40,216 nucleotides of DNA from a virus (Duplodnaviria; Heunggongvirae; Uroviricota; Caudoviricetes), in the IMG/VR virus record IMGVR_UViG_2579779009_000004. One strand, given 5' to 3'. Shown in pieces: positions 13,471-18,376 of this stretch. The position numbers were made by a program, and so were the translations under genes. The notes below the pieces were generated by a model that was given only the letters and a program-made list of their open reading frames with translations, did not search any database and was not told where the DNA came from. Position 1 is the first letter of the stretch. Every line of letters starts with the position of its first letter.

Positions 13471-13800
13471 CTATGCCACGACCTGTTCAAAATCTGCCGT
13501 TATGGTTACCCACAGCGCCCCCACGCTTGCCGACCATTTACGACAAACCACCCTGATCGGTTTCCAGTCATAAGGTGGCGTCCACTGAAATGCACGGACG
13601 CCACCGTGCCGTTCCAGAAAGGCTTTTAAAGATGGGTGGTCACATTTACGAACACGTATCGTCACGCTGTAAGTCGACAACTGGTTATTCAGTCCCGCCG
13701 CACGACGCTGTTCATAACCATCGCCCAGCTTCACTGTCACCACTTTCGGCTCTGATACCACATTCATATCCGGGCGCACTTTCCAGTGAAACGTCTCCAT
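13471..13800 (-). CDS. M: minor tail protein M
   Basis: 109 aa, lambda gpM-like; H stop and M start overlap (TAATG). Confidence 0.9.
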   Translation of the reverse strand: METFHWKVRPDMNVVSEPKVVTVKLGDGYEQRRAAGLNNQLSTYSVTIRVRKCDHPSLKAFLERHGGVRAFQWTPPYDWKPIRVVCRKWSASVGALWVTITADFEQVVA

Positions 13801-16800
13801 TACCGATATGCTCCACTTAACCGACCACCATCACGGGCCTGCTGTTGCATAAAGTCCGCTGCCGCTTTTTTCCCGAGGTCATAAACCGCCTTCAGGGCAG
13901 CCGGACCTATCTGCCCGTTCGTGCCATCGTTATTGATCTCGATGTTGTACTGCGGGGCAAACATCGCCATACCTGAACCACCAATATCCGCCACAACCCC
14001 CAGCTTACCGTCAGCACCACGACGCAGTGGCAGAATGGCTTCAGGTCCCGCTTCCCCCATCACACCCGCGCCTTTTGCAAAAGCAAAAAACGTCGGACGG
14101 TTAACCACCGTGCCACTGTAACGACTCAAATCAGCAGACTGATAAATCCCCCCATTGGCATTCAGGGAAAGGCTGCTGAGATCAAATCCCAGTACACTGC
14201 CAATCCCTTTTATCGATTTCATCATGGTTGCCTGCGCCAGGATTTTCGCCATATCTGACAGCACAGAAGAGGTGAAGGATTTGAAATTGAGTTTGCCGGT
14301 AGTGACAAAAGTTGCCAGGCCATTTCCCATGTTGCTGAAGGCTGACGAGAACACCTGTTCTGCTGTTCCTGCCGTATTATCTGCATCCACGGTAAAATTC
14401 TGAAATGCACGCAGGACTCCGTTTTTCCAGTTACCCTGCACAACTTCAAGCTGTTGCCAGTAACGGCGATTCTCATTCAGTTGTCGGTTCAGGCTCTCCG
14501 TCAGCGCCTGCTCGGCCTTTCTGTAGTCATCCGTGTTATATGTTCCTTTCTGCTCACTATCCCGCCTCAACTGCTCCAGCTGTTGCTGGTATTTCTGGCG
14601 AAGACTCAGTTGTACCTGATATCGCTGCCGCTGCTGATCACCCATACCCACCGTGGCGATATCCAGGTCATGTTGCTGACGCTGAGCGCGCTCTTCTTCA
14701 GCCAGTTGACTGGTCAGCTGAATTGTTTTTTTCTTCAGCTCGTTGAGTGCCGTCTGTTTCTGAAGCTCCTGCTGTTTTACATCCAGCAGCGTCAGTGCCT
14801 GAATCAGTTCATCTTTACGGGCCAGCACACTCTTTTCATCTGCCGTCAGTTTTTTCCCGTCCAGGTCGCTGATGCGCTGCTGCAGAGCCAGAAGCTGTTT
14901 ATGCGCTTCTGTCATCCTTTCCGTGGCAATGCCTGCTGACTGTCTGGCAGCAGCAATCTGTCCTTCCACCTGTGCCTGTTGCTGACTGTACTGCAGCAAT
15001 AACCGGGTGGCCTCATCATTACGGGGTTCGCGTGTTTTTTTCTTACCGGATGCCAGGGCTTTCTCGTAACGTTCATTTTCACGTTGTATCGCCGCATCCC
15101 TGACAGCCTGATCGGCGTACTGCATGGAATTAATACGCGCAATTTCACGCTGATGTCGTGCTGCTTCCGTTTCATTCATCCGGTTCAGTGCAGCATTTTC
15201 AGCATTACGGCGTTTCTGTTGCTCCTGATAATTCTGCTCTGCCTGCTCTTTTGCATCCTGCAAATCCTTCTGGCGTTTTTTCTCCTGAAGCTCGTTAAGA
15301 CGCTGCTGATCGTACTCAACCTGAGAAGATGATGCCGTCCAGGGGAGTCTTTTCGCCCGCGACACTTTCTCCTGTAAAGCGGAAATCTGTTCATCCAGCG
15401 AGTCTTCACGACCAATATTCATGGCCGCATCCCAGAAACGACTCCATAAATCAGACAGATACTTCAGCGTACTGCCCAGCGCATTGAGGTTATTATCAAT
15501 ATCCGCAGTACGCCGACCGGTTTCCTCTGCCAGTGCAGACATGGCTATCCGTGCCGCATCACTGGACCGCCCCTGTTCCCCAAGGACGCGTATCTGCTCA
15601 AGCTGAGTGGCAGTAAGAAAATGCAGCTCATTGTCCAGAGCCTTCGCGGCATTTACAGGATCATCCTTCAGCCGCTTAAACTGATTTATGGTATCGCTGA
15701 CCGACTGGCCAACCGATCGCTCCATCTGTGCGGCAGCTCTCGCCACCATACCGATATCGTTTCCACGAAATGCACCACTCCCCACCACCTGAGCCAGCGC
15801 ACCGGCTGCAGCATGTTGCGTGATACCATTCCCGGAAATAGCACGACTGAGCGTCCACAGCTGCCCGGCAGTGACTCCGGCATAATGCCCCGTCAGCGAC
15901 AACTGGCGGTTAAATTCTTCCCCCTCCTTCTGACCATCATACCAGGCTTTACCCAGACCATAGACGGCCGCGGCAATACCGCCAATAACCCCGCCCAGCA
16001 TCATGCCTTTCGGTGACATCAGTGTGTCTATCCATCCGGCACGGTTAGCCAGCGTTATCCCGGATCCCCTCAGCGCACCTAAATTGCCGCGAGCCAGTTC
16101 AACTATCAGAACGCCTATCTCCTGGCGGGCCGCTGCACTTTTCAGACCCAGCGAATGCGTGGCTTTTCCTGCCTGCTCCATTTTGCGGATATACACTTCT
16201 GCAGCACTGCTTACCCCCAGCTGGGCAGCCTTAGCACGAAGCAACTCAGAAGAAGAAAGATTCTGGCGGGTTGCCTGCTCTTTAAGCTGACGGATAAACG
16301 CCACTTTCTGTCGGGTAGCCTCTTCCTCAGCCTGTGTAAGAACACGGGTTTTCGCAGTAACCTCAGAAATCAGCGCCAGATAATCCTGCTGACCAATCCC
16401 GCCACTGTTTCTGGCCTGTCGGATCTGCTGCTGAATACGCTGTAATTCCTGCAGCCCCGCACTGGCCTGTTTCACACTGTCAATCTGACGATAAAACGCA
16501 GCAGCCGCTTTATCCTGAGCCTCCGCCAGAGCCATGGCCTGCGCCTGTTCCTCGCGCATTTTCTGGCTCAGTGCCTCCATGCGCTGGCGGGTTTTCTCCA
16601 CCTCGCGGGCCATGCGTTCATGAGCCTGTGCGTTCTTCTCCACCGTCTGCGCATGGACGGATGCGGCTGTTGCAGCCGAAGAAGCTGCCTGCGTTGTCTG
16701 CCGGGCGGCCTGAGTCTGACGCTCCATAAAACGCTGCATACGGGCAGAAGACCGTTCTGCATCGCTGGCTGCACCATTCAGAAGGTTTTTGATACGGGGA

Positions 16801-16865
16801 ATTTCATTTTTAAACTCTGCCGCATCAATCCCCAAATCAATGACCAGGTTGGCTATCTGGTCCAT
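13800..16865 (-). CDS. H: tail tape measure protein (H-like)
   Basis: About 1021 aa, coiled-coil-rich with Q/E/R/A repeats; C-terminus ...INNDGTNGQIGPAALKAVYDLGKK... resembles lambda gpH. Start chosen at MDQIANLVIDLG with GGAGGTG 6 nt upstream; the ORF track starts 10 codons earlier. Confidence 0.9.
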   Translation of the reverse strand: MDQIANLVIDLGIDAAEFKNEIPRIKNLLNGAASDAERSSARMQRFMERQTQAARQTTQAASSAATAASVHAQTVEKNAQAHERMAREVEKTRQRMEALSQKMREEQAQAMALAEAQDKAAAAFYRQIDSVKQASAGLQELQRIQQQIRQARNSGGIGQQDYLALISEVTAKTRVLTQAEEEATRQKVAFIRQLKEQATRQNLSSSELLRAKAAQLGVSSAAEVYIRKMEQAGKATHSLGLKSAAARQEIGVLIVELARGNLGALRGSGITLANRAGWIDTLMSPKGMMLGGVIGGIAAAVYGLGKAWYDGQKEGEEFNRQLSLTGHYAGVTAGQLWTLSRAISGNGITQHAAAGALAQVVGSGAFRGNDIGMVARAAAQMERSVGQSVSDTINQFKRLKDDPVNAAKALDNELHFLTATQLEQIRVLGEQGRSSDAARIAMSALAEETGRRTADIDNNLNALGSTLKYLSDLWSRFWDAAMNIGREDSLDEQISALQEKVSRAKRLPWTASSSQVEYDQQRLNELQEKKRQKDLQDAKEQAEQNYQEQQKRRNAENAALNRMNETEAARHQREIARINSMQYADQAVRDAAIQRENERYEKALASGKKKTREPRNDEATRLLLQYSQQQAQVEGQIAAARQSAGIATERMTEAHKQLLALQQRISDLDGKKLTADEKSVLARKDELIQALTLLDVKQQELQKQTALNELKKKTIQLTSQLAEEERAQRQQHDLDIATVGMGDQQRQRYQVQLSLRQKYQQQLEQLRRDSEQKGTYNTDDYRKAEQALTESLNRQLNENRRYWQQLEVVQGNWKNGVLRAFQNFTVDADNTAGTAEQVFSSAFSNMGNGLATFVTTGKLNFKSFTSSVLSDMAKILAQATMMKSIKGIGSVLGFDLSSLSLNANGGIYQSADLSRYSGTVVNRPTFFAFAKGAGVMGEAGPEAILPLRRGADGKLGVVADIGGSGMAMFAPQYNIEINNDGTNGQIGPAALKAVYDLGKKAAADFMQQQARDGGRLSGAYR

Positions 16866-17199
16866 AACGCACACCTCCGGAAATACCTTCCCCAAGATGC
16901 ATCAGTTCTTCGTCCGTTCGCTCCGGTATCCCGTTCTCTTCCGGTAAAAGGCTGAAATCAGCCACCGCAGCATCACTGCTACCGGACACCATTCTCACGA
17001 TCAATGCCTTCAGCGAGGCAAACTGCGCATCCATCCACACATCACTGAAGCTCTGCATCCGGAAATAATCGCCCCACTCACCAAGCTCAGTGGCCGACAT
17101 TTCCGACAGCATCCGCCGCCAGTCTGCCCGCCGGAACTCCCGGGCAAGCCGCATGACAAACTGCATTTCCCGCGTCAGGACTTTTCCGGCGTCAGCACC
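16837..17199 (-). CDS. T: T segment of the tail assembly chaperone G-T, expressed by -1 programmed frameshift from G
   Basis: The -1 frame is open from 17199 to a stop at 16837 and overlaps the 3' end of G, the arrangement conserved between the major tail and tape measure genes in lambda-like tails. Confidence 0.6.
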   Translation of the reverse strand, partial: GADAGKVLTREMQFVMRLAREFRRADWRRMLSEMSATELGEWGDYFRMQSFSDVWMDAQFASLKALIVRMVSGSSDAAVADFSLLPEENGIPERTDEELMHLGEGISGGVRYGPDSQPGH

Positions 17200-17564
17200 T
17201 CATGCTCCAAATCCCCGGCATTCTCAATGACTCCCATACCGCTCAGCGACAGAACCATCTCCGCCCCCGCTCCCAGGGCATCATACGACCATGTTGTAAT
17301 AACGGATGCGCAAAGCGTCTCAACATCCTGAGACTGTTCCGCATTCCACAGTGAGCGGGAAACCAGCCAGGCATTGATATCCATCCCCATCCGCAGAAAA
17401 GCAATCTGTCGTTCAGCCTCCGGCAGTTCTCCCTCTTCGGCATCAAACTTTGCCGTTCGCTGCTGAACAAACGCCAGATATTCAATTCTCTGCAGCCCGG
17501 ACAGCTCACTGAGCACCACGGACTGCTTTTCATAATTAAACGTGCCCTGTTTCAGAAACATCAT
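17175..17564 (-). CDS. G: tail assembly chaperone G
   Basis: MMFLKQGTFNYEKQSVVLSELSGLQRIEYLAF... resembles lambda gpG (MFLKTESFEHNGVTVTLSELSALQRIEHLAL...); AGGTGGAG precedes the start. The exact start is ambiguous between the ATG at 17564 and the one at 17561. Confidence 0.85.
   Translation of the reverse strand: MMFLKQGTFNYEKQSVVLSELSGLQRIEYLAFVQQRTAKFDAEEGELPEAERQIAFLRMGMDINAWLVSRSLWNAEQSQDVETLCASVITTWSYDALGAGAEMVLSLSGMGVIENAGDLEHEVLTPEKS
17181..17187 (-). other. candidate G-T -1 frameshift slippery heptamer G GAA AAG
   Basis: Minus-strand 5'-GGAAAAG-3' lies inside the only 22-nt window (17178..17199) where the G frame and the T frame are both open; lambda uses G GGA AAG. Confidence 0.45.
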
Positions 17565-17621: not shown

Positions 17622-18365
17622 TTAACCTGCGGCGCTGACAGCCACCGCAGCCACTGCCACAAAATCGCCGTCAGAAGTCATGCCCACAATGCTGACACTG
17701 CCCTGCTTCACGCCTTTCACCGTGGCCACAAGCCCGTTCAGGGTCACCGTGGCAGTCTGTGGATCTGTCGAATGCACACTGATCGCTTTGTCACTGGCTC
17801 CGTCAGGTTTTACTGTAAAGGTCAGCGTGGTGGTTGCTCCCACTTTTACACTGGCAGATGCCGGTGCCACCGTCAGCCCGGTAACGCTCACTGTTTCAGT
17901 GCCTTCCTCTGCCAGATACGGACGCCCCACACCGCTGATTTTCACTGTGCGGGTCATCACGTCTTTTGAGGCAATGGTTTTACCCAGTGAGCTCAGCCAG
18001 CCACGGAAAACATCAACAGTGCCGTTGGGATATTTGATACGAAACGCGCAGACTTCACCGGAGTCGAACAACTGAACCAGTTTTTTCTGCCCGCTGTCAC
18101 CCGGACGCCAGGCCAGCGTCGCCGAAGTATCACCGACGGATTTCTGCCCCTGGGTTGTCGTTTTCCAGTCTGCATCTTCATCATCGAGATAAGTGTCATC
18201 TTCTGCATCAGCGGTCATTTCGCCAGGTTGCAGATCCTTCACCATCGCAAGACGCAGCCAGTCAGTGTCCGATAAAGGGTTCGCAAACGCATCGCCCTTG
18301 CCGGTGTACATCCAGAACGTCGTTCCCGCACCTTTCGTTTTTGCCAGTGGATTTGGTGTGGTCAT
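17622..18365 (-). CDS. V: major tail protein V with C-terminal Ig-like (Big_2) domain
   Basis: MTTPNPLAKTKGAGTTFWMYTGKGDAFANPLSD... resembles lambda gpV; AGGAGG 5 nt upstream of the ATG at 18365. The ORF-track start at 18371 is a GTG. Confidence 0.9.
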   Translation of the reverse strand: MTTPNPLAKTKGAGTTFWMYTGKGDAFANPLSDTDWLRLAMVKDLQPGEMTADAEDDTYLDDEDADWKTTTQGQKSVGDTSATLAWRPGDSGQKKLVQLFDSGEVCAFRIKYPNGTVDVFRGWLSSLGKTIASKDVMTRTVKISGVGRPYLAEEGTETVSVTGLTVAPASASVKVGATTTLTFTVKPDGASDKAISVHSTDPQTATVTLNGLVATVKGVKQGSVSIVGMTSDGDFVAVAAVAVSAAG

Positions 18366-18376
18366 TGCCACCTCCT

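What the first reader, a model, noticed from the sequence alone, without database searches (positions are those of the whole stretch)
17175..17204. G-T frameshift window with a slippery heptamer one base different from the lambda site
The T frame (-1) is closed by a TGA at plus 17200-17202 and the G frame ends at 17175-17177, so any G-T fusion must shift within 22 nt. The only shifty motif there is GGAAAAG, whereas lambda uses GGGAAAG (from memory). The P-site codon cannot re-pair canonically, so fusion would rely on single-tRNA slippage of tRNA-Lys on A AAG, or G-T is made at low efficiency here.
Basis: partly seen in the sequence, partly recalled or inferred. Interest (0 to 1): 0.45.

Follow-up and report, generated by a model that had tools for sequence, protein, structure and literature searches.

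The report
Phage tail G–T frameshift site
This is the ordinary programmed -1 ribosomal frameshift site that joins the two tail-assembly chaperone genes G and T of a lambda-like E. coli phage; its GGAAAAG "slippery" sequence differs from lambda's by one base, but it is the commonest form among the relatives sampled here and is already annotated as the shift site in phages N15, phi80 and LLS.

Summary
On the minus strand, G (17561/17564..17175, PF06894) ends at TGA 17177-17175. The -1 (T, PF06223) frame opens after TGA 17202-17200. The only in-register shifty motif in the 22-nt overlap is G_GAA_AAG (17187-17181).

It is not an oddity:
- Anchored on the T domain, 353 related loci all carry G_GNA_AAR at exactly the position of lambda's proven G_GGA_AAG. 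264 of them have GGAAAAG, which is 18 of 23 full-length clusters at 80% identity.
- The T part aligns without gaps from the first residue after the heptamer.
- The three synonymous (third-codon) positions inside the heptamer are nearly invariant, while neighbouring ones vary freely.
- GenBank already marks GGAAAAG as the -1 slippery sequence in N15, phi80 and LLS.
- The ATG used by annotators as the T start (17166) is not conserved.

Most likely mechanism: tRNA-Lys re-pairs from AAG to AAA, and tRNA-Glu re-pairs near-cognately from GAA to GGA through a middle G·U pair. The conserved leading G argues against pure single-tRNA slippage.

A Shine-Dalgarno-like GAGGTG lies 8 nt upstream and may stimulate the shift; this is suggestive only. 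No conserved downstream structure was found, and efficiency is unmeasured.

Verdict: real, functional and already known; low interest.

The parts
17175..17564 (-). Gene G, the tail assembly chaperone. It is 128 aa from the probable start ATG 17561, or 129 aa from ATG 17564. Stop TGA at 17177-17175.
   Evidence: PF06894 Phage_TAC_2, E=7e-40. Translation. Homologues start MFLK. GGAG at 17571-17568 lies 6 nt from ATG 17561.
17181..17187 (-). Slippery heptamer G_GAA_AAG in X_XXY_YYZ register. GAA is the P-site codon and AAG the A-site codon.
   Evidence: It lies at the same place relative to the T domain as lambda's GGGAAAG. It is conserved in 264 of 353 loci, and all 353 have G/A-G-N-A-A-A-R. The same heptamer is annotated as the slippery sequence in N15, phi80 and LLS.
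16837..17181 (-). The T part of the G-T fusion, read in the -1 frame. G 17181 is re-read as the first base of GTC. It encodes 114 aa (VLTREMQFVMRLAREF...DSQPGH); stop at 16839-16837. Predicted fusion = join(17561..17181, 17181..16837), 241 aa.
   Evidence: PF06223 Phage_tail_T, E=5e-15. Translation. Gap-free alignment of T parts from the first residue after the heptamer in 13 lineages, lambda included.
17200..17202 (-). TGA that closes the T (-1) frame upstream and sets the 5' limit of the shift window.
17196..17201 (-). Shine-Dalgarno-like GAGGTG, 8 nt upstream of the heptamer. Candidate 5' stimulator (inferred, not shown).
   Evidence: Duplex with the 16S 3' end is -9.2 kcal/mol, against -7.3 for the dnaX AGGGAG. 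Mean anti-SD energy over 13 lineages dips at spacers of 7-10 nt. Absent in the N15/phi80 subgroup.
17164..17166 (-). ATG used by annotators as the start of a separate T gene. Probably not a real start.
   Evidence: PGAP and the phage records start T here. The Met is Leu, Arg or Ile in other lineages. The only SD-like bases (GGGA) lie 2 nt from the ATG.
13800..16865 (-). Tape measure gene (H-like). Its start ATG 16865 overlaps the end of T by 29 nt.
   Evidence: PF06791, PF09718 and PF24622. Start as annotated in mEp460 and in RefSeq. RBS GGAGGTG at 16878-16872.
17622..18371 (-). Major tail tube gene (V-like, with a Big_2 domain), immediately upstream of G.
   Evidence: PF16461 E=6e-67 and PF02368.

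Best explanation
This is the programmed -1 ribosomal frameshift site of a lambda-type G/GT tail-assembly chaperone pair, in a mEp460/cdtI/Ayreon-like phage or prophage of E. coli.

Most ribosomes read G to its stop at 17177-17175 and release gpG. A minority slip back one base when GAA and AAG of G_GAA_AAG (17187-17181) occupy the P and A sites. tRNA-Lys re-pairs perfectly from AAG to AAA. tRNA-Glu re-pairs near-cognately from GAA to GGA: C36:G, U35·G, U34:A. Translation then continues with GTC CTG ACG... and yields a 241-aa fusion, ...LTPEK-VLTREMQ....

By analogy with lambda, the G part of that fusion binds the tape measure protein and the T part recruits the tail tube protein.

Shown here: anatomy, register, orthology of the site to lambda's, and conservation at the nucleotide level. 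Inferred: that the fusion is made, how the two tRNAs behave, and any boost from the upstream GAGGTG pairing with 16S rRNA.
For: 1. Family and context. G is PF06894 and T is PF06223. They lie between a V-like tube gene and the tape measure gene.
2. T is in the -1 frame, and the overlap holds one in-register shifty motif.
3. Position. In 13 lineages with under 90% identity in G, the heptamer is in X_XXY_YYZ register. The T part aligns without gaps from the first residue after it. This includes lambda, whose site is experimentally established (lambda; PMC5009743).
4. Protein conservation. The G C-terminus PEK[SP] is conserved down to 55% identity, while the preceding roughly 20 residues are hypervariable.
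5. Nucleotide conservation. All 353 loci have the A_AAR core. The G-frame synonymous positions inside the heptamer carry 1.57-2.0 bits, against 0.05-0.85 bits upstream. Elsewhere in these genes AAG is only 36% of Lys codons and GAA 54% of Glu codons.
6. The leading G is kept across CCG, GCG, GTG and CTG.
7. GenBank curators annotate the same heptamer as the -1 slippery sequence in N15, phi80 (with a gpG-T join) and LLS. They describe Gifsy-2 T as part of a frameshift hybrid.
8. The ATG at 17166 is not conserved.
Against: - No direct evidence here that the fusion protein is made in this phage.
- In a reconstituted E. coli system, AUG GAA AAG gave mainly the 0-frame product and is called 'less slippery' than G GGA AAG (PMC6924986).
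- A_AAG tetramers without a stimulator gave about 0.15% against a 0.11% background; 5.6% was reached only with a strong pseudoknot (PMC4066793).
- No conserved downstream structure was found.
- The upstream SD-like element is only moderately unusual within these G-rich genes (rank 0.03-0.57 per lineage). It is missing from the N15/phi80 subgroup.
- One locus has AGAAAAG, so the leading G is not absolute.
Confidence: 0.85

Rival explanations
1. Pure single-tRNA slippage. Only tRNA-Lys shifts on the tetramer A_AAG, either in the A site or in the P site while UCC awaits decoding. The preceding GAA codon and the leading G play no pairing role. This is the first reader's preferred mechanism, and the protein product would be identical.
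For: - The invariant core across the family is A_AAR. The P-site codon varies (GAA, GGA, GCA), and GCA cannot re-pair on GGC.
- One AGAAAAG variant exists.
- Tetramer and hexamer NNA_AAG sites are known to be used, for example in IS1222 (review PMC5009743).
Against: - The base before the P-site codon is G in 22 of 23 clusters, although the codon it ends varies (CCG, GCG, GTG, CTG). Neighbouring third positions are free.
- All P-site codons start with G, so the first pair (C36:G) is always restorable after the shift.
- A_AAG alone is barely above background without a strong stimulator.
Confidence: 0.25
2. T is translated on its own from ATG 17166, for example by re-initiation after termination at the G stop 8 nt upstream. 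No fusion is needed in this lineage.
For: - An ATG lies 8 nt after the G stop.
- Gene callers and most records annotate a separate 109-aa T from it.
- The Met is present in the closest relatives (L001, L114, L130, L195).
Against: - The Met is Arg, Leu or Ile in L194, L092, L093, L094, L098, L100, L109, L111 and lambda.
- There is no properly spaced Shine-Dalgarno sequence.
- T-frame homology starts at the heptamer, 5 codons before the ATG.
- Heptamer synonymous sites are conserved.
- In lambda, the T domain is made as part of the frameshift product gpGT and acts there (PMC5009743).
Confidence: 0.07
3. The shift is made at the RNA level, by transcriptional slippage on the A run, rather than by the ribosome.
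For: A run of four A is present.
Against: - By established knowledge, four A is far below the run lengths that give productive RNA polymerase slippage (roughly 7 or more).
- The conserved pattern is register-specific (G_GNA_AAR), as expected for tRNA re-pairing.
Confidence: 0.01

Closest known systems
Phage lambda G / G-T programmed -1 frameshift (Levin, Hendrix and Casjens 1993; Xu, Hendrix and Duda 2004, 2013, 2014)
   Same: - Homologous G (PF06894) and T (PF06223) domains, with the same gene order V-G-T-H.
- T is in the -1 frame.
- The shift site is at the identical position relative to the T domain.
- A-site AAG to AAA re-pairing by tRNA-Lys.
   Different: - The P-site codon is GAA (Glu) instead of GGA (Gly), so re-pairing on GGA needs a middle G·U pair.
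- The G stop follows one codon after the heptamer (TCC TGA) rather than five.
- G is only 33-37% identical to lambda G.
N15 genes 14/15, phi80 G-T and phage LLS genes 11/12
   Same: The identical heptamer GGAAAAG in the same register is annotated in GenBank as the -1 translational frameshift slippery sequence. phi80 and LLS carry joined CDS features.
   Different: - These are a different G/T sublineage: T is 42-45% identical and G 34-35% (N15 G was not compared).
- Their G stop is five codons downstream, as in lambda.
- They lack the GAGG element 10 nt upstream.
Gifsy-2 (Salmonella) G/T; phages mEp460, cdtI, Ayreon, Tritos
   Same: - Gifsy-2 has the same CCGGAAAAGTCCTGA junction, and its T is annotated as part of a frameshift hybrid.
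- mEp460, cdtI and Ayreon are 97-99.7% identical to the window over G-T.
   Different: In the mEp460-type records G and T are annotated as separate genes with no slippage feature.
E. coli dnaX -1 frameshift cassette (A_AAA_AAG with an upstream SD-like AGGGAG and a downstream stem-loop)
   Same: - tRNA-Lys slips on A_AAG.
- An SD-like sequence lies upstream at an equivalent rRNA register: GAGGTG with an 8-nt spacer corresponds to about 11 nt in dnaX terms (dnaX described in PMC6924986).
   Different: - The first codon is not slippery.
- No conserved downstream stem-loop.
- The role of the SD-like element is untested and it is not conserved across the whole family.
NNA_AAG hexanucleotide / A_AAG tetranucleotide -1 sites (IS1222 G_CGA_AAG, B. 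subtilis cdd A_CGA_AAG; Licznar et al. 2003)
   Same: Only the A-site tRNA-Lys can re-pair cognately, and the preceding codon ends in A (review PMC5009743).
   Different: - Those sites depend on strong 3' structures. For A_AAG, efficiency was 5.6% with the IS3 pseudoknot and about 0.15% without. None was found here.
- Here the base before the hexamer is also conserved.

Membership tests
Lambda-type G/GT tail assembly chaperone with programmed -1 frameshift | Upstream ORF homologous to gpG | tested here: met
   PF06894, E=7e-40, covering 2-118 of 129 aa. 37% identity to lambda G in the alignment.
Lambda-type G/GT tail assembly chaperone with programmed -1 frameshift | Downstream ORF homologous to gpT, in the -1 frame, overlapping the end of G | tested here: met
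   PF06223, E=5e-15. Frame relation read directly from the sequence.
Lambda-type G/GT tail assembly chaperone with programmed -1 frameshift | Position between the major tail tube gene and the tape measure gene | tested here: met
   V-like PF16461 at 18371-17622; tape measure PF06791 and PF09718 at 16865-13800.
Lambda-type G/GT tail assembly chaperone with programmed -1 frameshift | Slippery sequence in register within the overlap, at the conserved position | tested here: met
   G_GAA_AAG at 17187-17181. Positionally orthologous to lambda G_GGA_AAG. It is a non-canonical variant: XXX is not homogeneous.
Lambda-type G/GT tail assembly chaperone with programmed -1 frameshift | No independent translation start for T | tested here: inconclusive
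   An ATG exists at 17166 in this lineage. It lacks a spaced SD and is not conserved in other lineages.
Lambda-type G/GT tail assembly chaperone with programmed -1 frameshift | G-T fusion protein made at a low fixed ratio to G and required for tail assembly | not testable with these tools
   Needs a reporter assay, western blot or mass spectrometry. Lambda values (about 4%, 30:1) are from PMC3296357 and PMC5009743.
dnaX-like SD-stimulated -1 frameshift cassette | SD-like sequence about 10-14 nt upstream of the shift site | tested here: inconclusive
   Present in the window: GAGGTG, -9.2 kcal/mol, 8-nt spacer. It recurs in the mEp460/Gifsy/Symbiopectobacterium lineages, but its rank within genes is only 0.03-0.57, and it is absent in N15/phi80.
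dnaX-like SD-stimulated -1 frameshift cassette | Stable stem-loop 5-9 nt downstream of the shift site | tested here: not met
   Consensus structure over 14 sequences is -3.8 kcal/mol with covariation term +0.45. The local fold of the window has z = -2.3, but its stems are broken in relatives.
Canonical X_XXY_YYZ heptamer sites | Both P- and A-site tRNAs can re-pair with at most a wobble-position mismatch | tested here: not met
   GAA to GGA gives a second-position G·U pair (sequence; stated in PMC6924986).

The most novel reading that the evidence does not exclude
In the mEp460/Gifsy-2 sublineage, the weak heptamer G_GAA_AAG is raised to a useful level by pairing of the conserved upstream GAGG(TG) with the 16S rRNA 3' end, as in dnaX, with no 3' structure at all.

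Alternatively, these phages assemble tails with a G-T:G ratio well below lambda's 1:30.

Either case would make a sequence used in vitro as a 'less slippery' comparison sequence a natural programmed site. That site sits in a module carried by about a third of complete E. coli genomes.
Probability: 0.3. Interest if true: 0.35.

Novelty: already known. Interest (0 to 1): 0.15.

Why it matters
The main value is for annotation. This G-T module occurs at 95% identity or more in 1848 of 5426 complete E. coli genomes. RefSeq's pipeline and most phage records annotate a separate T gene from a non-conserved ATG, not the frameshifted G-T fusion. Searches restricted to canonical X_XXY_YYZ heptamers will miss the site.

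There is also a small mechanistic point. The commonest natural G-T site in the sample seeded here is a sequence that in vitro work treats as poorly slippery. Its real efficiency, and what sets it, are worth one reporter experiment.

It does not change the understanding of tail assembly or of frameshifting.

Tried and rejected
- **Downstream stimulatory structure.** A single-sequence fold gave z = -2.3. The consensus fold over 14 diverged sequences has almost no energy and no covariation. The stems of the window's fold are broken in close relatives. Rejected as a conserved element.
- **Bare 7-mer enrichment.** GGAAAAG is not significantly enriched in the window. This statistic is not informative.
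- **SD-like element as a family-wide feature.** The statistics are only suggestive. Fisher combination gives about 1e-3, but lineages are not independent. The element coincides with a semi-conserved Glu. It is absent from N15/phi80. Kept only as a hypothesis.
- **Literature.** Searches for GGAAAAG with phage, tail or N15 returned mostly primer hits. The Licznar 2003 NNA_AAG paper was not held, and Xu et al. 2004 (Mol Cell) was found only as a reference and not looked up, so I could not read whether GAA_AAG efficiency or N15 G-T was measured. The PRFect supplement did not hold the definitions of its non-canonical motifs such as 'twofour'.
- **Genome-contig scan.** It returned only 13 loci. Diversity came from the viral-contig scans.
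- **Transcriptional slippage and +2 shifts.** Considered and dismissed on sequence grounds.

Full report
**What is in the sequence.** The tail genes run on the minus strand. Gene G reads ...GAG GTG CTG ACG CCG GAA AAG TCC TGA, with its stop at 17177-17175. It probably starts at the second ATG of an ATGATG pair (17561). That ATG lies 6 nt from a GGAG and matches the MFLK start of homologues.

The frame one base back (-1) is closed by TGA at 17202-17200. It then runs open to 16839-16837. Any fusion of the two frames must therefore arise within 17199-17178, which is 22 nt. A codon-by-codon check finds one in-register shift-prone motif there: A_AAG inside G_GAA_AAG at 17187-17181. This includes lambda's GGGAAAG, which I read from the lambda record and which Maynard et al. 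2012 list (PMC3296357).

**What the genes are.**
- G matches Pfam PF06894 (lambda tail assembly chaperone G, E=7e-40).
- The -1 frame product matches PF06223 (minor tail protein T, E=5e-15).
- The gene upstream is a lambda-type tube protein with an Ig-like domain.
- The gene downstream is a lambda-type tape measure protein.

The segment is 97-99.7% identical to phages mEp460, cdtI, Ayreon, Tritos and others. It occurs at 95% identity or more in 1848 of 5426 complete E. coli genomes. In those records G and T are annotated as two separate genes, with T starting at the ATG equivalent to 17166.

**Comparative evidence that this is the shift site.** I collected 361 related loci from viral and genome collections, seeded with six G proteins of different sublineages, plus annotated records. 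Locus counts reflect this seeding and are not prevalence estimates.
- I anchored each locus on the conserved LARE..DW motif of T and looked 39 nt upstream. All 353 loci that could be anchored have G/A-G-N-A-A-A-R there: 264 GGAAAAG, 82 GGGAAAG, 5 GGCAAAA, 1 GGCAAAG and 1 AGAAAAG.
- After clustering G+T at 80% identity, 18 of 23 full-length clusters have GAA as the P-site codon, 3 have GGA (lambda and a Serratia/Symbiopectobacterium group) and 2 have GCA.
- In 13 lineages with under 90% identity in G, the heptamer is always in X_XXY_YYZ register. The T parts align without a single gap from the first residue after it, lambda included. The site is therefore positionally orthologous to lambda's experimentally established site.
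- The G C-terminus PEK[SP] is conserved down to 55% identity, while the 20 residues before it are hypervariable.
- The three G-frame third-codon positions that fall inside the heptamer carry 1.74, 2.00 and 1.57 bits. The seven third positions just upstream carry 0.05-0.85 bits.
- Elsewhere in these genes AAG is only 36% of Lys codons and GAA 54% of Glu codons.

This is the signature of selection on the RNA sequence, not on the protein.

**Already known.** GenBank marks exactly this heptamer as the 'slippery sequence for -1 translational frameshift' in N15 (NC_001901, 10027-10033) and phi80 (FN582354, with a joined gpG-T CDS). In phage LLS (PQ299149) it is labelled 'minus-one programmed translational frameshift site GGAAAAG'. 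Gifsy-2 carries the same CCGGAAAAGTCCTGA junction as the window, and its T is described as part of a frameshift hybrid. The one-base difference from lambda is therefore not a peculiarity of this window. GGAAAAG is the common form, and lambda is the minority form in this seeded sample.

**Mechanism.** tRNA-Lys can re-pair perfectly from AAG to AAA. This is the strongest A-site slip in E. coli (Sharma et al. 2014, PMC4066793).

tRNA-Glu on GAA would face GGA after the shift. The first and third positions pair normally and the middle one is G·U. Peng et al. 2019 (PMC6924986) call this a second-position mismatch. In their reconstituted system, AUG GAA AAG gave mainly 0-frame product, whereas G GGA AAG shifted readily when EF-G was limiting.

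However, the base before the P-site codon is G in 22 of 23 clusters. It is the third base of CCG, GCG, GTG or CTG, and every P-site codon begins with G. The first pair of the shifted P-site tRNA can therefore always reform. I take this as evidence that the P-site tRNA matters, and that the unit under selection is the heptamer G_GNA_AAR, not the tetramer alone.

**Possible stimulators.**
- No conserved downstream structure is detectable. The consensus fold is -3.8 kcal/mol with unfavourable covariation. The window's own fold (z = -2.3) is not maintained in relatives.
- Upstream, the window has GAGGTG at 17201-17196, 8 nt before the heptamer. It pairs with the 16S 3' end at -9.2 kcal/mol, stronger than the dnaX AGGGAG (-7.3), and in an rRNA register one base further than in dnaX.
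- GAGG or GGAG about 10 nt upstream recurs in most lineages of the mEp460/Gifsy/Symbiopectobacterium group. The Glu codon there is GAG in all of them.
- The caveats are substantial. The element is only moderately unusual in these G-rich genes, it overlaps a semi-conserved Glu, the lineages are not independent, and the N15/phi80 group lacks it.

I report the upstream element as a hypothesis, not a finding.

**Rivals.**
- Independent translation of T from ATG 17166 is unlikely. The Met is Arg, Leu or Ile in most other lineages. No spaced Shine-Dalgarno sequence precedes it. T homology begins five codons upstream of it, at the heptamer.
- Transcriptional slippage on four A is implausible.
- Pure tetramer slippage remains a live variant of the mechanism. 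It would give the same protein.

**Verdict.** This is a real, functional and well-conserved programmed frameshift site of a known kind, with a heptamer already recorded in public annotation. Its only residual interest is quantitative: how efficient G_GAA_AAG is in vivo and whether the upstream SD-like element sets that level. There is also a practical point, namely that the fusion goes unannotated in a very common E. coli prophage module.

Noticed in passing
window 17601-17578 (minus strand): A terminator-like hairpin, GCCCCGGTTATCCGGGGC followed by TTTTTT, lies between the V-like tube gene and G. It is annotated as a rho-independent terminator in mEp460, Ayreon and N15. It would lower transcription of G, T and the tape measure gene relative to the tube gene.
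   Followed up: partly
window 17564-17559 (minus strand): G begins with ATGATG. The second ATG (17561) has the better spacing to GGAG and matches the MFLK start of homologues, so G is probably 128 aa rather than 129.
   Followed up: partly
window 16865-16837 (minus strand): The tape measure gene start (ATG 16865, RBS GGAGGTG at 16878-16872) overlaps the end of the T frame by 29 nt.
   Followed up: no
L094 (Ewingella americana) and L110-L113 (IMG/VR); junction CTG GCA AAA TAG: A third junction type, G_GCA_AAA directly followed by the G stop codon. The P-site tRNA-Ala cannot re-pair, and the stop would sit in the A site once AAA reaches the P site. This may be a stop-assisted P-site slip.
   Followed up: partly
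proteins P0031, P0046, P0001 and P0003: Rare singleton variants occur. Two are single-ORF G-T proteins made by in-frame deletions that remove the shift site. One G carries an internal duplication. One G is fused to an upstream gene. These are probably decaying prophages or assembly artefacts.
   Followed up: partly
L085 (MAG: Bacillota bacterium) and L090 (MAG: Proteobacteria bacterium): Metagenome-assembled genomes labelled Bacillota and Proteobacteria carry a G gene 93-98% identical to this E. coli phage module. This is probably mis-binned E. coli prophage DNA.
   Followed up: no
L255 cluster (AGAAAAG) and L201 cluster (GGCAAAG): Single loci carry a heptamer altered at position 1 or position 3 while keeping A_AAG. 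I could not tell whether these are functional variants or errors.
   Followed up: no
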